The translations under genes were made by a program, and so were the position numbers. A stretch of 64,000 nucleotides of DNA from Escherichia phage FL20, in sequence record PP400781; one strand, 5' to 3'. Under the pieces are notes generated by a model. That model was not told the DNA's origin and did no database searches. It was given only the letters and a program-made list of their open reading frames with translations. The stretch's first letter is position 1; the number at the start of each line of letters is the position of its first letter. This document shows, in pieces, positions 19,514 to 64,000 of this stretch.

Positions 19514-20017
19514 TTAAATTAAAGAAAATTTGTAAATCTCTATCAGATCGCCGTTACACGCGTAAACTTCCTCGATCTCATCAAGGATCATGGTCGTCCC
19601 TGTCTTGTATATACACTCGCGCTCATCTGCCAACATAGCATACAAAGACAGTCGAGTAGTCGGATTGTCATACTCTTTAGACACCACTCGGTCAATAGCA
19701 TGTTCGTAATAATTCATGCAAGGTTTGGTAGGTTTTATTGCAATAATCTTTCCTGTTGCATAAACATCGGTTGCAAAGTCCTCTGCTGTTGATTGCAGTG
19801 GCGTAAAGCTCATAGGACGCTCTACAACGAAAGAATCACCTACAATTAAGGTATCCAGCTTACGGCCTTCTCTTTTGCTCACACCGCGATACAAGGCTTC
19901 ATGATGCACTAACCGTTCAGTCTTTTCAATCAATCCATTAAGGATCGACATATCGATATTTTCTTTAGAGTTCATCACTTCATCAATGATGTTAAGTTCT
20001 TCTGGTGTAAATTGCAT
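19514..20017 (-). CDS. Hypothetical protein (167 aa)
   Basis: ATG at 20015-20017 with GGAGG RBS; the track's earlier ATG lies inside a TTGACA-17-TATTAT promoter. Confidence 0.45.
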   Translation of the reverse strand: MQFTPEELNIIDEVMNSKENIDMSILNGLIEKTERLVHHEALYRGVSKREGRKLDTLIVGDSFVVERPMSFTPLQSTAEDFATDVYATGKIIAIKPTKPCMNYYEHAIDRVVSKEYDNPTTRLSLYAMLADERECIYKTGTTMILDEIEEVYACNGDLIEIYKFSLI

Positions 20018-20085
20018 AATAAAAAGCCTCCAATCTTTCGACGGGAGGCATAATAAAACCATGATAGAGTATTGTCAACTAATTT

Positions 20086-57989: not shown

Positions 57990-58388
57990 TTAAGCCAATC
58001 GAGTGAGTTTATAAATTGTTTTAAAGCATAGAGCTTTGATATCGTCTAAAACGCTCTGTAACGAGCTATCAACATCATTATAAATCTCACTAGCCATTTG
58101 CGTTAACTCTTGCAAATAGGCAATTTCGCTCATCTCCTTGCGGACGACCAACGTTGGCTGATAACGACCAGTGATCCCAATATTGGTTTCAGTGAAATCA
58201 TCAACCAATTCTTGCATTTCAAGATAGAACTCTTCTAGAGCCTTATGTTTTGCATAAGATCCAGGACCAGTTACTCCAAAATGCGCAGAATGCATATAAG
58301 TAACACTCATCAGACATTCACCGATAAAGCGGTCAACTTTATTAGCTTTCCCCTCTTCGGACGTCTTTCGAAAATCACTGAATTTCAT
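57990..58388 (-). CDS. Hypothetical protein (132 aa)
   Basis: ATG at 58386-58388 with GGAGAAT RBS; followed by about 230 nt with no ORF. Confidence 0.4.
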   Translation of the reverse strand: MKFSDFRKTSEEGKANKVDRFIGECLMSVTYMHSAHFGVTGPGSYAKHKALEEFYLEMQELVDDFTETNIGITGRYQPTLVVRKEMSEIAYLQELTQMASEIYNDVDSSLQSVLDDIKALCFKTIYKLTRLA

Positions 58389-58677
58389 GTTCTCTATTCT
58401 CCATATTATGCAACATAACAAACTGTTGTGCGGCATATTCCCCCATAATAAAACACTGCTTAGAATCCATACATTTACTACGAGCATACATCTTCATAAT
58501 ATGGGCATGAAATTTCTGGCTGGTTTCAATGGAAGGAGATATTTTGTTTACATATACTATCATTGCACCGTCGAAATAATCAGTAAAGTCACCAGTTGGA
58601 TCATATTGATCAGCACTGACACTTCCGACCGCAGTCAAGCATATTGCCGCTGTTAGAGTTTTACGAATAAATGACAT
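58375..58677 (-). CDS. Secreted/periplasmic small protein
   Basis: 100 aa; signal peptide MSFIRKTLTAAICLTAVGSVSA. Confidence 0.45.
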   Translation of the reverse strand: MSFIRKTLTAAICLTAVGSVSADQYDPTGDFTDYFDGAMIVYVNKISPSIETSQKFHAHIMKMYARSKCMDSKQCFIMGEYAAQQFVMLHNMENREHEIQ

Positions 58678-58745
58678 AAGTCATTCCCCCAGATTAAAAA
58701 TATTCAGTTATATTTATAATCTGGGGCTTTATTTATGATTAACTC

Positions 58746-59342
58746 TTATTTGGTAGTACCGTCAATAAAATGTTTACGACACACAGAGACATATTTATCC
58801 TCTGCACCAACTTCTATTTGAGCACCATCGCGAATAACATTACCCTCTTTATCTACACGAAGGACCATTGTTGCTTTCTTGCCACAATGACAAATACCCT
58901 TCATTTCGACCAGTTTATCAGCAAATGCCATTAATGCCGCAGATCCTTCAAATAGATTGCCCTGAAAGTCGGTGCGAAGGCCATAGCACAGTACAGGGAT
59001 ATTTGCATCATCAACAAGCGCACACAAGCCTAAAACATGCTCTTTAGTCATAAATTGGGCTTCATCTACAAATACAGCATCAGGACGCCATCGATCCGGT
59101 CTACGCTTACCTAATGATTCACGATAAACCAAGTCGAAAAGGTCATCCGATTTAGTGAAGGTGATCGCTGGAGCACTTAGGCCAATTCGGGAAACAACTT
59201 CACTTTCTGAATCTCGATTATCAATCGCTGGCTTAAGAATTAATGCTCGCATATCACGTTCGGTATAGTTATAAGCACTTTGTAACAGAGAAGTTGATTT
59301 GCCAGCGTTCATAGATGCATAGTAGAAATATAGTTGCGCCAT
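58746..59342 (-). CDS. tk: Thymidine kinase
   Basis: 198 aa; P-loop ASMNAGKST, VFVDEAQF, C-terminal zinc ribbon CHCGKKAT...VCRKHF; collinear with T4 Tk. Confidence 0.9.
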   Translation of the reverse strand: MAQLYFYYASMNAGKSTSLLQSAYNYTERDMRALILKPAIDNRDSESEVVSRIGLSAPAITFTKSDDLFDLVYRESLGKRRPDRWRPDAVFVDEAQFMTKEHVLGLCALVDDANIPVLCYGLRTDFQGNLFEGSAALMAFADKLVEMKGICHCGKKATMVLRVDKEGNVIRDGAQIEVGAEDKYVSVCRKHFIDGTTK

Positions 59343-59635
59343 TAATTAATCTCCAAAAATCCAGCAAGACCTAAACCGATATAAGTCCAGATACAAAGGA
59401 AAAAGAAACAAACACCCATAGCAAAGATAAATCCGCGTAGTGTCTTTGGATAACCTACCCAATATTCCCGACCATCTTCTAACCGGATCAGCTTATTTCC
59501 TTGAGAGTCTATATCAATTACAACATGTTTATTTCTGGATTGTAACAGATATTGCTTGACAATCTCAATACCCGCCATAATAACAATAACGAAATTGAAA
59601 GTCCACATAACAAGGTTAATGGTAGTCTCAAGCAT
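59342..59635 (-). CDS. Hypothetical membrane protein
   Basis: 97 aa with two or three TM helices. Confidence 0.4.
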   Translation of the reverse strand: MLETTINLVMWTFNFVIVIMAGIEIVKQYLLQSRNKHVVIDIDSQGNKLIRLEDGREYWVGYPKTLRGFIFAMGVCFFFLCIWTYIGLGLAGFLEIN

Positions 59636-59870
59636 TTTCTATCACCTCCACCCAATCAGGTGTTTCCTGAAAGACTCCTTCGCCTTCATGATGGTCGCAA
59701 CCTTTATTGCTGCAATACATCCACCAATCCCACATTCCCCACGGTAAACGCTGCATATCGTCGTTACAGCAAGTGAAGATGATAGGCCAACCACATCTAA
59801 AACATCGGCAGTTTTCTTTCATGTGAGCGGTATTAGGCTTCTTCATAGATGACTCCAATATAATCGACAT
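59628..59870 (-). CDS. Cys/His-rich small protein (putative zinc-binding)
   Basis: 80 aa; CRCFRC...CC...C...C...H. Confidence 0.4.
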   Translation of the reverse strand: MSIILESSMKKPNTAHMKENCRCFRCGWPIIFTCCNDDMQRLPWGMWDWWMYCSNKGCDHHEGEGVFQETPDWVEVIENA

Positions 59871-60073
59871 TTACATTTAGGGCAATGCGGTTCTTTAATA
59901 TAATACCCGTCTGTCTTTGGAACACTAACAGGAGCGGTTTTTATATTGTATTCGGTGAAACAACGAAAACAAGTTACGTTTTCTACAGACTGACGTTTCA
60001 CCCAATCACCGGAATATAGATCATTTTTATTTGTCATATTCAACCACCACAATGTTAATGTCTGGAGTAGCAA
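59843..60073 (-). CDS. Cys-rich small protein (putative zinc ribbon)
   Basis: 76 aa; CFRCF...CPKCKC. Confidence 0.4.
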   Translation of the reverse strand: MLLQTLTLWWLNMTNKNDLYSGDWVKRQSVENVTCFRCFTEYNIKTAPVSVPKTDGYYIKEPHCPKCKCRLYWSHL

Positions 60074-60482
60074 TATTAATGATCTCTTCTACACATTCCC
60101 ACTCAAGGCCACCGATACCGCAACCGATTTTAGGAATATAGAAAGGCTGTGTAGCACCTTCAAAAACATCATTGAGAGTCTCAAATCCTTTCAGGATAGC
60201 ACCATATTCAGCATTTGGACCCGGTCGGAATTGGGTATAGAGATTCACCCCGCACCAGTTATAACCATTAACTTGATGCGTCCAGACACTAAACCCACCC
60301 AGCTTTTCGACCTTACCGCGAGAAGTTTGCTTGTCAATCTCTAACGCTTGCGGGAACTCTTTCGCGATCTTTGCAGCAATACCAGCGCCCATAGTATGAA
60401 AACAATTACAACCATGAATTAAATGACCGTTTCCTTGTTTAAACAGGGCGATGAGATCGCCCTTTACAGTATCAATAATCAT
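60027..60482 (-). CDS. Macro-domain-like protein (ADP-ribose binding/processing fold)
   Basis: 151 aa; N-terminal HGCNCFHTMGAGIAAKI (position of the macro-domain NAAN-GGGV loop) and C-terminal IPKIGCGIGG (position of the phosphate-binding glycine loop). Confidence 0.45.
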   Translation of the reverse strand: MIIDTVKGDLIALFKQGNGHLIHGCNCFHTMGAGIAAKIAKEFPQALEIDKQTSRGKVEKLGGFSVWTHQVNGYNWCGVNLYTQFRPGPNAEYGAILKGFETLNDVFEGATQPFYIPKIGCGIGGLEWECVEEIINIATPDINIVVVEYDK

Positions 60483-60497
60483 AATATAAACCTCTCA

Positions 60498-60857
60498 TTA
60501 GTCACGGGAAGACAACCCAGCCATAAAACGGCTTAACAGTGTGTCGCGATAAGCAAAGCATAATTGCTTATCAGGGGCAGTATCACACAGGTTACGTTTT
60601 GTTTTAGCAAAGCTGGCAATACTCAGATCCCACGCTCGATTTTTTCGTTTTTCGTCTCGACCTTGTTTGTATGCTTCATCAAGTTCGAGCGCGATAAAAT
60701 CACTACACATGTTATCATCATCACAGAAAGTTTTAATGATCTTTTTGTTGATCTCAAATCCTTTGTATTCGAACTTTGGATAAGGGCGCTCATTACTAGC
60801 AAGCGCACCAGCAGAGAACATCATAGCAATCATAGCAATTATTGTCAACTTTTTCAT
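60498..60857 (-). CDS. Secreted/periplasmic protein with 4 Cys
   Basis: 119 aa; signal peptide MKKLTIIAMIAMMFSAGALA. Confidence 0.45.
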   Translation of the reverse strand: MKKLTIIAMIAMMFSAGALASNERPYPKFEYKGFEINKKIIKTFCDDDNMCSDFIALELDEAYKQGRDEKRKNRAWDLSIASFAKTKRNLCDTAPDKQLCFAYRDTLLSRFMAGLSSRD

Positions 60858-60864
60858 ATATTCC

Positions 60865-61455
60865 TCAATAGCGTTTAGTCTTAAGAATGCCTTTACTCTT
60901 TAGATGGTTAGCCTTTTTTAGTACGTCATCAGCATAACCTAATCCGGCTTTATAGTTCCATCCAGCATTGTAAGAAGCTAGCGCGAGTCGGATATTACCG
61001 TTTCGAACATCCAGCCAGTATGCTAACTCATCCATCGCGTAGAATGCAGAAACCTCGCGATTCATGATAAAGTTGATAGTCTGGCGATCACTCATTTTAA
61101 CACCGCGCTTTGCATTTTTCGCTTTCACCGTTTTAAGGTAATTTTGAAATAATCCATAAGCATGATGATTTTTCTTTGGTGCTAAGTTTGCACCCGCGCT
61201 TGATTCTTGCCATGCGATACCCGCCAGGATGTGACCTAAACCCTTTCCGTTATAGCGAATATTCGGATGGTACTTTTTCAACTTACCGCTTTTCTCGAAT
61301 TGCTCGCCGTATTGATAGGCGAAATGTAAATTATCTAGTTGGTGTGCTGTAAAGTTGTCTATCGGCGCTTTTTTGATCGGTGCGCTAGTCGATGCGTGTG
61401 TAGCACCAACGGCTAGTGACAGACTCAATACTATCGCTTTTAGAACTTTTAACAT
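60865..61455 (-). CDS. Secreted lytic-transglycosylase-like (SLT domain) protein
   Basis: ATG at 61453-61455 with AGGAG RBS; signal peptide; catalytic-type E-S motif (WQESSAG), GLFQ and AYNAG signature motifs. Confidence 0.5.
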   Translation of the reverse strand: MLKVLKAIVLSLSLAVGATHASTSAPIKKAPIDNFTAHQLDNLHFAYQYGEQFEKSGKLKKYHPNIRYNGKGLGHILAGIAWQESSAGANLAPKKNHHAYGLFQNYLKTVKAKNAKRGVKMSDRQTINFIMNREVSAFYAMDELAYWLDVRNGNIRLALASYNAGWNYKAGLGYADDVLKKANHLKSKGILKTKRY

Positions 61456-61540
61456 TAATTTCTCCTGTTTGGCTTGACTTTCTGATTCCATAATATAGCC
61501 CTATCACCAGAAAGTCAAGCATTAATTTAACCAATTTCCA

Positions 61541-61963
61541 TTATTGGTCTACCTTCAAAACAACCGCCGACATTTTACCCGCCAGTCGTTTTGGATTCTC
61601 TATAATCATTCGGCAGCATAGACCGTGATATGGCTTACCCTCTTCGATTAGATCTACTGTCATCCCGATCCACATGTTACCGTCAGTAATTTCTAATCGA
61701 TTAGGTCGGTCTTCCATTTTCAGGAAGTCGAAGATCTCCGGCAAACGAGTTTCTATCTTATTGAATAGTTCCATTGTCTTATGTTCATCGATATGACGAT
61801 CGGTTAGACGGTCGATCATATGCGGACTAAAGCGAATGAAAATATACTCACCGTAACCATCATTCAAGCACTTTTCTTTGATCTGCGCATTGGTTTTGCG
61901 CATTTCGGTTTCGAAGAATCTACGCAGCTTACTACGGCGAACATGTACGTTAATTGTTTCCAT
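61541..61963 (-). CDS. regB: Endoribonuclease RegB
   Basis: 140 aa from ATG 61961-61963; RRSKLRRFFETE, RLEITDGNMW, CRMIIENPKRLAGK match T4 RegB. Confidence 0.85.
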   Translation of the reverse strand: METINVHVRRSKLRRFFETEMRKTNAQIKEKCLNDGYGEYIFIRFSPHMIDRLTDRHIDEHKTMELFNKIETRLPEIFDFLKMEDRPNRLEITDGNMWIGMTVDLIEEGKPYHGLCCRMIIENPKRLAGKMSAVVLKVDQ

Positions 61964-61967
61964 TTTA

Positions 61968-62303
61968 TTATCCTTTCTTAAACAAATTGCGAAGCCAGTA
62001 TACAAACGGGATTTCTTTAAACTTGAACTTGTCAATAGTTAATTCTTTAGTAGCAAGATGAATACCATAAGCATCATGTGTAACTATATGCCATTTTCTA
62101 TAGTCCAAATGTGAACAACCGTCTGGATCTAGGTTAATAAGAGTTTCTCGCTCACTAGGATTATTTTTCCACAATTTTGTAATAGGATCGCACATAATTC
62201 GACCTAGCGTACCATGAATAATCTCACAACGGTAAAGTTTTCCAGCAGTGAGATAGGCGCACCCGTCATAGTCGGTATAAACAAACACTTCTTTAACACT
62301 CAT
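61968..62303 (-). CDS. Hypothetical protein (111 aa)
   Basis: ATG at 62301-62303 with AAAGGAG RBS. Confidence 0.4.
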   Translation of the reverse strand: MSVKEVFVYTDYDGCAYLTAGKLYRCEIIHGTLGRIMCDPITKLWKNNPSERETLINLDPDGCSHLDYRKWHIVTHDAYGIHLATKELTIDKFKFKEIPFVYWLRNLFKKG

Positions 62304-62334
62304 TTTAATACTCCTTTGTTGTTTCGATGGGGGT

Positions 62335-62363
62335 ATATTACTACCCCCGATCATGTGTGTCAA
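62335..62363 (-). promoter_or_regulatory. Sigma70-type early promoter with dyad spacer
   Basis: TTGACA-cacatgatcgggggtag-TAATAT; arms gggggta/taccccc. Confidence 0.5.
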
Positions 62364-62624
62364 CTACTTTTTCAAGATTTTTTTGATTGCATTCCAAAGA
62401 CCTTTATTTCCAGGTTGTTTTGGTTCTTCGATCAGTGTCCATGTTCGACCGTCTAAGTGTGCACAATTTTTAAGGCAAATAAAAATCTGATGTCCATTAT
62501 CAGCACGGATATAACCACTATTCGCAAATCTTTCATGTGGTGTATATTCATACAGTGTATTAGGTGTAATATACTTGCGGTTACTATAAGGTGTCATCAC
62601 ATACATCATGGTACTAACTCCCAA
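62364..62624 (-). CDS. Hypothetical small protein, paralog of 62606..62800
   Basis: 86 aa; shared core GYI..D.G..I.I.L..CAHLDGRTW.LIEEP. Confidence 0.4.
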   Translation of the reverse strand: MGVSTMMYVMTPYSNRKYITPNTLYEYTPHERFANSGYIRADNGHQIFICLKNCAHLDGRTWTLIEEPKQPGNKGLWNAIKKILKK

Positions 62625-62800
62625 CGGTCACCGCGAAGATGAGCACATCCACCATCAAGAAGGATCGTAATACGAACACCCGCATCATCTTCAATATACC
62701 CGATAGTCGGTGGATGTTCGTCGTCTCGTGTCGGGTTAAAATCATACATCTTTCCAGGCGTAATATCTTGTCCTTTATTGCTATTGGTATAAACTTGCAT
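62606..62800 (-). CDS. Hypothetical small protein, paralog of 62364..62624
   Basis: 64 aa; GYIEDDAGVRITILLDGGCAHLRGDRWELV. Confidence 0.4.
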   Translation of the reverse strand: MQVYTNSNKGQDITPGKMYDFNPTRDDEHPPTIGYIEDDAGVRITILLDGGCAHLRGDRWELVP

Positions 62801-62821: not shown

Positions 62822-63520
62822 CTAACCACGGGTATAGTGTTCCAGAACAACTGTCAGATGAATATATTCTAATAGATCTTTCCAAAAGTCAACATCTGGT
62901 TCTTCCGGCATACCGTTTTTCTTTGCCTCTTCACGCGCGAGTTTAACACGCTCGTAGAGATCTTTCAATTCTTCCCGCACATTATCAAAGGTTCTTTCTC
63001 CTAACTTACACGCTAAAATAGAAGAACGTCGCGCGAGCGGGAATTGTAGATCACCTGTCTGATAGATTTCAAGTAGCTGATAACCAACACGCAGAGCATG
63101 AGAAAGATCTTTCCAGTTACTGAAATACTTTTCAGATTTGGCTACCTGCTTTTTGAGATAGCCAGACAAACCCCACATACCAACATGATAGAATTTATCT
63201 CGATGTGTTCGGATGTATTCCCATTCTCTGGAGGATTCAATCAACATGTTACTAGGAGCGTGCACCATGTCAATAGCGCCGATATCGCCTTTACATGCCA
63301 GATTGATAAACCGTTTTAGACTGAACATATTAACGTCAATATCGTCTTTGGTGTTCTTGATACCTTGACCGCTAGTGCTTTGGTCATAGTGTTCTTTCAT
63401 CGATCCTAAGATAATTTCTTTCGCAGTCGGAACAAAGATACCACGATAATCTTTATCTGAATTTTCAGTATCAAGGCCGTACAAGTGAGATCCGAAGACC
63501 ATTTTAACCATTGTATGCAT
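62822..63520 (-). CDS. Predicted nucleotidyltransferase-fold protein
   Basis: 232 aa; N-terminal MVFGSHLYGLDTENSDKDYRGIFVP fits the minimal NTase signature hG[GS]...[DE]h[DE]h. Confidence 0.45.
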   Translation of the reverse strand: MHTMVKMVFGSHLYGLDTENSDKDYRGIFVPTAKEIILGSMKEHYDQSTSGQGIKNTKDDIDVNMFSLKRFINLACKGDIGAIDMVHAPSNMLIESSREWEYIRTHRDKFYHVGMWGLSGYLKKQVAKSEKYFSNWKDLSHALRVGYQLLEIYQTGDLQFPLARRSSILACKLGERTFDNVREELKDLYERVKLAREEAKKNGMPEEPDVDFWKDLLEYIHLTVVLEHYTRG

Positions 63521-63538: not shown

Positions 63539-64000
63539 TTAAACGTATTCAGCAACAACATTATGTTTAAAATTACCGCTCCTTTTTGGATTTGGATTTT
63601 TCAATCGACTATGTATTAAATTTTTGTTGTATCCGGTTGCTTTAGACGCTTCGCCAATACTTTGATAAACAACACCATTAACACGAATCGGACGAGACTT
63701 ATTAAACAGTTGATTCAATCCGGCATCATATGCATGGTTTTGGTTTTCTTGCCTCGTTGCGATCTCAAGATTCCAAACACAATTACAAGATTTTACCCCA
63801 CTTTTATGATTAATTTCAAGACCTTCACAATCACCTATAAAGTGTTCAGCAACTAGTCTATGAATATAGCGATATTTCTTACTTTCCCCATCATGCAAGC
63901 ATACATTATAATAACCATCACCAGCGCGTTTAGGTCGGAGTAGTTTACCTTTAACACGTTTTATAGTAGGGAACTCACCAAATTGATTTCTCTGGATAAA
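63539..64000 (-). mobile_element. HNH homing endonuclease gene, 5' end beyond window
   Basis: The frame stays open upstream of the track ATG to the window edge (...RPKRAGDGYYNVCLHDGESKKYRYIHRLVAEHFIG...EINHKSGVKSCNCVWNLEIATRQENQNH); HNH core plus C-terminal NUMOD-like HTH. Confidence 0.65.

What the first reader, a model, noticed from the sequence alone, without database searches (positions are those of the whole stretch)
60027..60482. Macro-domain-like protein flanked by Cys-rich micro-proteins
The 151-aa ORF has residue patterns at the positions of the macro-domain ADP-ribose-binding loops (HGCNCFHTMGAGIA and IGCGIGG). Phage macrodomains could reverse host ADP-ribosylation (for example DarT-type DNA ADP-ribosylation) or regulate phage ADP-ribosyltransferase targets. 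Two adjacent Cys-rich small ORFs (59628..60073) may be zinc-binding partners.
Basis: inference. Interest (0 to 1): 0.6.

Follow-up and report, generated by a model that had tools for sequence, protein, structure and literature searches.

The report
Phage Tk.4/AdfM macrodomain, anti-DarT2 factor

Summary
The 151-aa ORF at 60027..60482 (minus strand) is real and carries both quoted motifs. It passes Pfam's Macro threshold. Its AlphaFold2 model (pLDDT 97) matches TARG1, DarG, Poa1p, BT1257 and SCO6735. The window is an RB49-like Krischvirus, and the gene sits in the conserved order tk, small ORFs, tk.4, vs, vs.1, regB. It is 98.7% identical to RB49 Tk.4 and 43% identical over its full length to T4 Tk.4. 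A 2025 preprint renamed T4 Tk.4 AdfM because deleting it sensitises T4 to DarTG2.

One refinement: the DarG/TARG1 catalytic lysine position holds Gln84 (76 of 77 family members). SCO6735, a proven thymidine-ADP-ribose DNA hydrolase, has an essential Gln at the same position. The protein also lacks DarG's DarT-binding C-terminal domain.

The two Cys-rich ORFs (true lengths 64 and 72 aa) belong to Pfam "phage zinc binding" families. T4 lacks both. About half of their homologues have no macrodomain nearby, and the adjacencies that do occur are confined to related lineages. I rate the finding already known and of low interest.

The parts
60027..60482 (-). tk.4/adfM orthologue: a 151-aa stand-alone macrodomain of the ALC1-like class (TARG1/DarG/SCO6735). 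It is the Gln-type, short-loop variant.
   Evidence: ORF; Pfam Macro above threshold; PHROG 335; 43% identity to T4 Tk.4, E 2e-44; AF2 pLDDT 97; Foldseek best hits TARG1, DarG and Poa1p, TM 0.72-0.78; matches the macro half of DarG models in PADLOC and NCBIfam.
60375..60416 (-). Residues 23-36, HGCNCFHTMGAGIA: ADP-ribose-binding loop 1. Asn26 is invariant. It aligns with SCO6735 N27, and I read it as the counterpart of PhiKZ AdfM N23. His23 aligns with SCO6735 H24.
   Evidence: Column conservation in the 77-sequence alignment A1: N26 77/77, G24 77/77, G34 77/77, H23 75/77. Alignment to 5e3b. SCO6735 mutants H24Y and N27S were studied in PMC9411070. N23A reduces PhiKZ AdfM activity.
60231..60245 (-). 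Residues 80-84, NLYTQ. Gln84 occupies the position of catalytic Lys84 of TARG1, Lys80 of DarG and Gln85 of SCO6735.
   Evidence: HMMER alignments to TARG1, DarG, BT1257 and SCO6735. Q84 is present in 76/77 family members and T83 in 76/77. PMC9411070 states that SCO6735 Gln85 is equivalent to the catalytic lysine and that Q85A/E abolish activity.
60108..60128 (-). Residues 119-125, IGCGIGG: diphosphate-binding loop 2. Gly124 sits where TARG1 has Asp125, so the Lys/Asp dyad is absent, as in DarG.
   Evidence: G120 and G122 are 77/77 and G125 is 75/77. Alignment with TARG1 'IGCGLDRLQW' and DarG 'LGVGNGGLDW'.
59843..60037 (-). 64-aa Cys-rich protein with a CxxC...CxxC zinc-ribbon pattern (PF23903, Phage_zn_bind_2). 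Its start overlaps the tk.4 stop by 11 nt. It is a neighbour, not a demonstrated partner.
   Evidence: Pfam E 1.8e-23; PHROG 4864; RB49p090 annotation; invariant C23, C26, C52, C55 and C57; distribution.
59628..59846 (-). 72-aa Cys/His-rich protein (PF23895, Phage_zn_bind) with an ATGA overlap onto the upstream gene. It is a neighbour, not a demonstrated partner.
   Evidence: Pfam E 1.6e-33; RB49p089; invariant C15, C18, C26, C27, C45, C50 and H53; AF2 pLDDT 78; no significant PDB fold match.
59342..59635 (-). 97-aa predicted membrane protein of unknown function lying between the Zn proteins and tk. It has hydrophobic N- and C-terminal segments.
   Evidence: ORF; PHROG 16027, E 4.5e-61, function unknown; no homologue in the T4 tk region.
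58746..59342 (-). Thymidine kinase (tk), the downstream synteny anchor.
   Evidence: Pfam TK, E 3.5e-51.
60498..60857 (-). vs (valyl-tRNA synthetase modifier), the upstream synteny anchor. It is followed by vs.1 (60865..61491, SLT-like) and regB (61541..62035).
   Evidence: PHROG 1256, PHROG 600 plus Pfam SLT, and Pfam REGB_T4. The same order is seen in RB49 and T4.
19514..20062 (-). Mod-like ADP-ribosyltransferase encoded elsewhere in the window. It is relevant only to the rival 'self-regulation' hypothesis.
   Evidence: PHROG 832 'RNA polymerase ADP-ribosylase', E 5.2e-21; MIZ6 annotation; no Pfam hit.

Best explanation
The ORF is the Krischvirus (RB49-type) orthologue of T4 Tk.4, recently named AdfM. 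It is a stand-alone, single-domain macrodomain and is probably made early in infection along with its neighbours. It most likely acts as an orphan antitoxin-like enzyme. When a DarTG2 defence system releases DarT2, the toxin ADP-ribosylates thymidines in single-stranded phage DNA and blocks replication. The macrodomain would bind the ADP-ribose in its conserved cleft (Asn26, the GAG loop and the GCGIGG loop) and hydrolyse the thymidine-ribose bond, restoring replicable DNA. Shown here: identity, fold, orthology, synteny and active-site composition. Inferred: the substrate (thymidine-ADP-ribose on DNA) and the biological role (DarTG2 evasion). These come from T4 genetics and from biochemistry on related enzymes. 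Chemically it should work like SCO6735 and not like DarG, because it has an essentially invariant Gln where DarG and TARG1 have the catalytic Lys, and it has no Asp partner. It lacks DarG's C-terminal DarT-binding domain, so DarG-style occlusion of DarT by that domain is not available to it. The two downstream Cys-rich mini-proteins are separate small genes of the variable tk-tk.4 interval and are not required subunits.
For: The gene is real and has a macro fold. Pfam Macro is above threshold. The AF2 model has pLDDT 97 and pTM 0.91. Foldseek's top hits are TARG1, Poa1p, DarG (three structures), BT1257 and SCO6735, all with probability 1.00 and TM 0.72-0.78.

The gene is orthologous to T4 tk.4. 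The window is 98-99% identical in DNA to RB49 and MIZ6. The protein is 98.7% identical to RB49 Tk.4 and 43% identical over its full length to T4 Tk.4, E 2e-44. The order tk, small ORFs, tk.4, vs, vs.1, regB is the same in RB49, T4, VR20, T2 and phiE142.

The function of the orthologue is known from genetics. T4 tk.4 was the single significant hit in a transposon screen on DarTG2, and a clean knock-out is sensitised.

Related enzymes have the proposed chemistry. PhiKZ AdfM removes DarT2 thymidine-ADP-ribose from an oligonucleotide and rescues DarT2 toxicity. SCO6735, which has Gln85 at the lysine position, hydrolyses thymidine-ADP-ribose DNA faster than DarG and needs that Gln. Gln84 is present in 76/77 family members, and N26, G34, G120 and G122 in 77/77.

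The only defence-library hit is DarG, restricted to its macro half (PADLOC E 1.2e-13, NCBIfam positions 2-141 of 338).
Against: There is no assay of this protein or of any Krischvirus orthologue. The T4 evidence is genetic only, comes from a preprint, and rests on 43% identity. The family lacks two SCO6735 lysines whose mutation reduced activity (K34 aligns with Ala33, and K89 lies in a mobile-loop insertion that Tk.4 does not have), so DNA recognition may differ. Macrodomains of this class also act on protein-linked ADP-ribose and on small ADP-ribose derivatives, and the phage encodes its own Mod-like ADP-ribosyltransferase. Additional or different substrates are therefore not excluded. About 41% of myoviruses carry macrodomains (PMC9503650), which may point to a broader role than countering one defence system.
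Confidence: 0.7

Rival explanations
1. The macrodomain tunes or reverses modifications made by the phage's own ADP-ribosyltransferases (Alt- or Mod-type, including RNAylation of host proteins), not a host defence mark.
For: A Mod-like ADP-ribosyltransferase is encoded in the same window at 19514..20062. ALC1-class macrodomains such as TARG1 and SCO6735 also remove protein-linked ADP-ribose.
Against: T4 tk.4 was non-essential on plain K-12 and became a hit only with DarTG2. The gene is about 40 kb from the transferase gene and is not linked to it. By established knowledge, not tested here, Alt and Mod modify arginine, and macrodomains are not known to cleave arginine-ADP-ribose.
Confidence: 0.1
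2. It is a small-molecule enzyme, as the database label 'phosphatase' implies. It would be an ADP-ribose-1''-phosphate phosphatase or O-acetyl-ADP-ribose deacetylase, or it would degrade NAD-derived immune signalling molecules.
For: The label derives from the A1pp motif. The yeast ADP-ribose-1''-phosphate phosphatase Poa1p is among the best structural matches. Some metagenome sources name homologues 'O-acetyl-ADP-ribose deacetylase'. A survey of viral NAD/ADP-ribose systems suggested soluble substrates for many phage macrodomains.
Against: The only phenotype reported for the T4 orthologue is specific to DarTG2. The closest characterised Gln-type enzyme acts on DNA. The 'phosphatase' name is an inherited annotation, not a test.
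Confidence: 0.1
3. The macrodomain works as a complex with one or both downstream Cys-rich proteins, which supply target recognition or DarT binding.
For: The genes overlap or abut and look translationally coupled. Whenever a macro gene is near a homologue of either small protein, it lies immediately upstream on the same strand (14 of 32 viral loci). The macro/64-aa pair also occurs in unrelated rV5-like phages.
Against: T4 has a protective Tk.4 but neither small protein in the region. The macro occurs in 2,734 phage records, against 233 and 785 for the small proteins. In jumbo phages the 64-aa homologue sits between Acb1-like and Sir2 genes. The 72-aa homologue occurs next to GNAT, RHS-repeat or unknown genes. 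Its macro adjacency is confined to Straboviridae.
Confidence: 0.05

Closest known systems
T4 Tk.4 = AdfM (anti-DarT factor Macrodomain), bioRxiv 10.1101/2025.11.20.689424
   Same: Full-length homologue with 43% identity, E 2e-44. Same size and same genomic slot between tk and vs. Same NLYTQ(F)xPGPN segment with Gln at the lysine position, and the same binding loops.
   Different: A different genus (Krischvirus versus Tequatrovirus) with 57% of residues differing. The downstream small genes differ: T4 has tk.1-tk.3 (DUF7438, DUF7202), whereas this phage has PF23903, PF23895 and a membrane protein. The DarTG2 phenotype was shown only for T4.
Streptomyces coelicolor SCO6735 (PDB 5E3B) and Bacteroides BT1257 (2FG1)
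   Same: Stand-alone ALC1-class macrodomains with Gln at the catalytic-lysine position and no Asp partner. His and Asn of loop 1 are conserved (H23/N26 versus H24/N27). SCO6735 hydrolyses thymidine-linked ADP-ribose on DNA and rescues DarT toxicity.
   Different: Only 25-27% identity. Tk.4 lacks their 5-6-residue longer 'mobile loop', which contains K89, and has Ala where SCO6735 has K34. They are bacterial, not phage, proteins.
DarG antitoxin of DarTG2 (PDB 5M31, 5M3E, 5M3I; NCBIfam NF048014)
   Same: Same macro fold and class. Best single-sequence PDB hit (E 2.5e-7), TM 0.77-0.78, and the only PADLOC hit. The presumed substrate is the same.
   Different: No C-terminal DarT-binding domain. 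Gln instead of Lys80. No adjacent darT. Scores 48.7 bits against a 250-bit family cut-off.
PhiKZ gp104 AdfM (PMC13309987)
   Same: A phage-encoded stand-alone macrodomain that counters DarTG2. The loop-1 Asn appears to be conserved (its N23; Asn26 here).
   Different: Only 24% identity, E 1.7e-5. It is Lys-type ('FPTKDNW'), it is imported into a phage nucleus, and it has been validated biochemically, whereas the T4 type has not.
T4 AdfN (gene 30.3, NADAR; PMC11825919) and ICP1 AdfB (PMC10760071)
   Same: The same strategy: phage-borne orphan antitoxin-like factors that neutralise DarT toxins.
   Different: AdfN is a NADAR-fold enzyme acting on guanine-ADP-ribose from DarT1. AdfB mimics DarG's DarT-binding domain and is thought to act by direct binding. 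Neither is a macrodomain.

Membership tests
Macro domain (Pfam PF01661) | Profile match above the curated gathering score | tested here: met
   27.5 bits versus a cut-off of 22, covering profile positions 1-118 of 118.
Macro domain (Pfam PF01661) | Mixed alpha/beta macro fold | tested here: met
   AF2 pLDDT 97, pTM 0.91. Of the 50 Foldseek PDB matches listed, 39 are natural macrodomains and 11 are designed OSH55 hydrolases; 181 matches reach E<=0.001.
Macro domain (Pfam PF01661) | Conserved ADP-ribose-binding loops (Asn plus GxG loop 1; G-x-G-x-G-G loop 2) | tested here: met
   N26, G34, G120 and G122 are invariant in 77 homologues, and G32 and G125 are >=93% conserved. They align to the same loops in TARG1, DarG and SCO6735.
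T4 Tk.4 / AdfM family | Full-length sequence homology to T4 Tk.4 | tested here: met
   43% identity over 150 of 151 residues, E 2e-44. Both belong to PHROG 335 and hit Pfam Macro with near-identical scores.
T4 Tk.4 / AdfM family | Conserved position between tk and vs in the tk-regB block | tested here: met
   for the window; for RB49, T4, VR20, T2 and phiE142.
T4 Tk.4 / AdfM family | Protects the phage against DarTG2 | not testable with these tools
   Shown only for T4 by knock-out. Needs plating of a deletion mutant.
DarG antitoxin (NCBIfam NF048014, PADLOC DarG) | N-terminal macrodomain plus C-terminal DarT-binding domain (about 330-340 aa) | tested here: not met
   The protein is 151 aa. 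The matches cover model positions 2-141 of 338 and 3-141 of 329 only, and score 48.7 bits against a 250-bit cut-off.
DarG antitoxin (NCBIfam NF048014, PADLOC DarG) | Catalytic lysine (Lys80) | tested here: not met
   Gln84 aligns to that position. It is Gln in 76/77 family members.
DarG antitoxin (NCBIfam NF048014, PADLOC DarG) | Encoded next to a darT toxin gene | tested here: not met
   The neighbours are vs and small Zn-binding ORFs. A bacterial homologue is also stand-alone.
SCO6735/BT1257-type Gln macrodomains | Gln at the position of the DarG/TARG1 catalytic Lys | tested here: met
   The equivalence of Gln85 with the lysine is stated in PMC9411070.
SCO6735/BT1257-type Gln macrodomains | Extended 'mobile loop' about five residues longer than in DarG/TARG1 | tested here: not met
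   The profile alignment shows a 6-residue gap in Tk.4 relative to BT1257, and the pairwise alignment a 5-residue gap relative to SCO6735.
SCO6735/BT1257-type Gln macrodomains | Hydrolysis of thymidine-linked ADP-ribose on DNA | not testable with these tools
   A biochemical assay is required.
TARG1-type glycohydrolases | Lys84/Asp125 catalytic dyad | tested here: not met
   Gln84 and Gly124 occupy those positions.
Pfam PF23903 and PF23895 (phage zinc binding domains) for the two small ORFs | Profile match above the gathering score, with conserved Cys/His | tested here: met
   82.6 and 115 bits against a cut-off of 27. Invariant CxxC pairs and Cys/His residues. Metal binding itself was not tested.

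The most novel reading that the evidence does not exclude
The Cys-rich mini-proteins that so often sit directly downstream of Tk.4-type macrodomains could be small counter-defence proteins in their own right. In the boldest version they would bind and block DarT2, supplying in trans the inhibitor function that DarG's missing C-terminal domain provides. The cassette would then be a split antitoxin. Their location next to an Acb1-like anti-CBASS gene and a Sir2 gene in jumbo phages would fit a counter-defence role.
Probability: 0.07. Interest if true: 0.5.

Novelty: already known. Interest (0 to 1): 0.2.

Why it matters
The result confirms that a sequence-only reader inferred both the fold and the likely biological role of a phage gene correctly. 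It also corrects the common database label "phosphatase". For phage biology the practical points are modest. RB49-type phages probably carry built-in resistance to DarTG2. The T4-type AdfM family uses a Gln-type active site like SCO6735, not the DarG lysine. That predicts which point mutants (Q84A, N26A) should inactivate it, and it marks the family as a subgroup distinct from the biochemically characterised PhiKZ AdfM.

Tried and rejected
1. I tested whether the window's small ORFs are homologues of T4 tk.1, tk.2 or tk.3. BLASTP and TBLASTN found nothing, and the Pfam families differ.

2. Searching the 5.8-billion-protein database with the two small ORFs gave only 1 and 8 hits. Two of them (P0121, P0129) look like frameshifted gene calls and were dropped.

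3. I asked whether GAP32_118, upstream of the jumbo-phage 64-aa homologue, is a macrodomain. It is Acb1-like instead.

4. I looked for a common neighbour of the small proteins in macro-less loci. None was found; the neighbours are GNAT, RHS-repeat, InsA-like or unknown genes.

5. The promoter and terminator scan of 58500-62400 found 14 promoter-like sites against 11.0 +/- 3.8 expected, and 3 terminator-like sites against 2.3 +/- 1.4. This is uninformative.

6. The fold search with the 72-aa model found no match at E <= 0.001.

7. My own MAFFT alignment of reference macrodomains misplaced the 'NMIGQH' segment of SCO6735 and BT1257. For residue equivalences I relied on the HMMER alignments and the published structure-based statement.

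8. Pfam gave nothing for the Mod-like ORF; only PHROGs recognised it.

9. A complex prediction of the macrodomain with the small proteins could not be run, because the structure tool takes one chain at a time.

Full report
**Observation.** The window carries an ATG-started 151-aa ORF at 60027..60482 on the minus strand. Its translation contains HGCNCFHTMGAGIA at residues 23-36 and IGCGIGG at residues 119-125, and I read the corresponding DNA directly. Two Cys-rich ORFs lie immediately downstream on the same strand. Their longest-ORF coordinates are 59843..60073 and 59628..59870. Three lines of evidence favour shorter genes of 64 aa (59843..60037) and 72 aa (59628..59846). Family matches begin at residue 13 of each long form. 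RB49's annotation gives 64-aa and 72-aa genes. Shine-Dalgarno-like sequences sit upstream of the internal ATGs, and the second gene starts in an ATGA stop/start overlap. The gene run tk.4, 64-aa, 72-aa, 97-aa membrane protein, tk is packed with overlapping or abutting stops and starts.

**Is it a macrodomain?** Yes.
- Pfam Macro (PF01661) matches across the whole model at 27.5 bits, above the 22-bit gathering score. PHROG 335 matches at E 5.8e-63.
- The single sequence hits solved macrodomains by sequence alone. These are M. tuberculosis DarG 5M3I at 2.5e-7, followed by BT1257, SCO6735 and TARG1.
- A profile of 77 homologues raises these hits to 7e-16 to 7e-13.
- An AlphaFold2 model built on that alignment has mean pLDDT 97.0 and pTM 0.91.
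- Foldseek against the PDB returns TARG1, Poa1p, three DarG structures, a DarTG complex, BT1257 and SCO6735, all at probability 1.00 with TM 0.72-0.78. Viral and histone macrodomains follow.

**Which gene is it?**
- The surrounding 3.4 kb is 98-99% identical to RB49-like Krischvirus genomes such as MIZ6, RB49, JSE and Phi1.
- The protein is 100% identical to MIZ2, MIZ3 and MIZ6 and 98.7% identical to RB49 Tk.4. RB49's record already notes that the protein "contains A1pp phosphatase motif".
- The neighbours are thymidine kinase, the valyl-tRNA synthetase modifier Vs, an SLT-like Vs.1 and the endoribonuclease RegB. This is the same order as in T4.
- T4 Tk.4 aligns over the full length at 43% identity, E 2e-44.
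- Homologues occur in 2,734 of 50,697 phage records and are variously labelled "phosphatase", "macro domain protein" or "hypothetical".
- A published survey reports macrodomains in 41% of myoviruses (PMC9503650).

**What does it do?**
- A 2025 preprint (bioRxiv 10.1101/2025.11.20.689424) ran a T4 transposon library on a DarTG2-expressing host. It found tk.4 as the single significant hit, showed that a clean knock-out is sensitised to DarTG2, and named the gene adfM.
- Independently, a 2026 paper showed that a macrodomain of phage PhiKZ, also called AdfM, removes DarT2-installed ADP-ribose from a DNA oligonucleotide. It also rescues DarT2 toxicity and is needed on DarTG2 hosts (PMC13309987).
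- In the defence-system libraries the window protein hits only DarG, and only its N-terminal macro half. PADLOC gives E 1.2e-13 for positions 3-141 of 329. NCBIfam antitoxin_DarG gives 48.7 bits against a 250-bit cut-off for positions 2-141 of 338.
- The best-supported reading is therefore an orphan antitoxin-like enzyme that erases DarT2's thymidine-ADP-ribose marks from phage DNA. This parallels the NADAR protein AdfN, which does the same for DarT1's guanine marks (PMC11825919).
- This part is inference by orthology. Nothing has been measured for this protein or for this phage genus.

**A refinement on mechanism.**
- In every HMMER alignment the segment N80-L-Y-T-Q84 lines up with TARG1 "L-I-T-K84" and DarG "F-P-T-K". 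Gln84 therefore replaces the catalytic lysine. TARG1's Asp125 position is Gly124.
- Gln84 is present in 76 of 77 family members, Thr83 in 76, and Asn26, Gly34, Gly120 and Gly122 in all 77. T4 Tk.4 has the same NLYTQF motif.
- SCO6735 and BT1257 also carry Gln at this position. For SCO6735 the literature reports three things. Gln85 is structurally equivalent to the DarG/TARG1 lysine. Q85A and Q85E abolish activity. The enzyme removes thymidine-linked ADP-ribose from DNA faster than DarG, apparently through an activated water (PMC9411070).
- The Tk.4 family therefore most likely shares SCO6735's chemistry. It is not simply an SCO6735 orthologue, however. It lacks the 5-6-residue longer mobile loop of SCO6735 and BT1257, including K89, and it has Ala33 at the K34 position.
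- PhiKZ AdfM, in contrast, is a Lys-type macrodomain ("FPTKDNW") and is only 24% identical to the window protein. The name AdfM thus currently covers two distinct subgroups, and only the Lys-type one has been validated biochemically.
- A chromosomal bacterial homologue (Pelagimonas, 44% identity) is a stand-alone gene with no DarT nearby.

**The Cys-rich neighbours.**
- They belong to Pfam PF23903 (64 aa, CxxC...CxxC) and PF23895 (72 aa), both named "Phage zinc binding domain". The conserved Cys/His residues are consistent with metal binding.
- The 72-aa model is moderately confident (pLDDT 78) and has no significant PDB fold match.
- The evidence argues against dedicated partnership with the macrodomain. 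T4, whose Tk.4 is protective, has unrelated genes tk.1-tk.3 in that interval and no homologue of either small protein in the region.
- The small proteins occur in 233 and 785 phage records, against 2,734 for the macrodomain.
- I scanned 32 IMG/VR loci with HMMs. A Tk.4-type macro lay immediately upstream on the same strand in 3 of 11 loci for the 64-aa family and 11 of 21 for the 72-aa family. It was absent within 6 kb in the rest.
- The 72-aa adjacencies I could assign to a lineage are all Straboviridae sharing the tk-regB synteny. I take them to reflect common descent.
- The 64-aa/macro pair is shared only between Krischvirus and rV5-like Vequintavirus, at 78% and 68% identity respectively, which suggests a block transfer.
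- In jumbo phages the 64-aa homologue sits between an Acb1-like anti-CBASS phosphodiesterase and a Sir2 / Nudix-cREC pair. The macro-less 72-aa loci have heterogeneous neighbours.
- The most economical reading is that these are independent small genes of a variable, probably counter-defence-rich, early region. A functional link is not excluded, but I rate it unlikely.

**Rivals.**
- The phage encodes a Mod-like ADP-ribosyltransferase at 19514..20062, so self-regulation of phage-made modifications is conceivable. The T4 phenotype, however, was specific to DarTG2.
- The "phosphatase" label, together with structural similarity to Poa1p, keeps a small-molecule role possible. That label is an inherited annotation and not a test.
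- The promoter and terminator scan around the cluster was at chance level.

**Verdict.** The macrodomain interpretation is correct, and the DarT-reversal idea matches what has since been shown for the T4 orthologue. The gene has been annotated as Tk.4 with an A1pp/macro motif in RB49's GenBank record, and its role has been reported for T4, so I rate it as already known. The residual points of interest are the Gln-type active site shared with SCO6735 and the unexplained Cys-rich neighbours.

Noticed in passing
L006:2515-4909 (Cronobacter phage GAP32); also L010-L014, L016, L017: In roughly 355-371 kb jumbo phages the 64-aa PF23903 homologue is sandwiched between an Acb1-like anti-CBASS phosphodiesterase (PF23474) and a Sir2 gene. 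A Nudix-cREC fusion follows, and NAMPT lies a few genes upstream. This looks like an NAD/nucleotide-signal counter-defence cluster.
   Followed up: partly
window 19514..20062 (-): A Mod-like ADP-ribosyltransferase (PHROG 832 'RNA polymerase ADP-ribosylase', E 5e-21). No Pfam model detects it.
   Followed up: partly
window 61968..62800 (-): Three consecutive small ORFs share a C(A/S)HL..(R/K)W motif. The 86-aa and 64-aa ones are clear paralogues (38% identity, E 2e-10), and the 131-aa one is a weaker relative (E about 0.003). None has a Pfam match. They sit where T4 has vs.3 and vs.4.
   Followed up: partly
L003:2291-3195 (phage FV3, Vequintavirus) versus window 59843..60482: rV5-like phages, which are unrelated to T4-like phages, carry a macro gene 68-70% identical and a 64-aa gene 78% identical to the window's, on the same strand and in the same order but separated by a 56-aa ORF. 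This suggests horizontal transfer of a macro/Zn-protein block between Krischvirus and Vequintavirus.
   Followed up: partly
window 59342..59635 (-): A 97-aa ORF with hydrophobic N- and C-terminal segments (PHROG 16027, function unknown) occupies the slot next to tk. It has no counterpart in the T4 tk region.
   Followed up: no
window 63539..63898 (-) and 62822..63520 (-): An HNH_3 homing-endonuclease-like ORF with an I-TevI-type DNA-binding tail lies next to an RlaP-family nucleotidyltransferase (the nrdC.11 homologue). The HNH ORF is a probable mobile insertion.
   Followed up: no
P0121 and P0129 (metagenome proteins): Database 'homologues' of the two small ORFs switch to unrelated sequence partway through. 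The new sequence matches other reading frames of the same DNA. They are probably frameshifted assemblies or miscalled genes, not real variants.
   Followed up: partly
window 57990..58677 (-): The rI antiholin ORF (PF24205) and the rI.-1 ORF (DUF5856) overlap by about 110 nt if the longest ORFs are taken. RB49's annotation uses a later start for rI.-1, leaving a 14-nt overlap.
   Followed up: no
Alignment A1, column of Gln84: One of the 77 Tk.4-family homologues has Lys instead of Gln at the catalytic position. This may be an intermediate between the Lys-type and Gln-type active sites.
   Followed up: no
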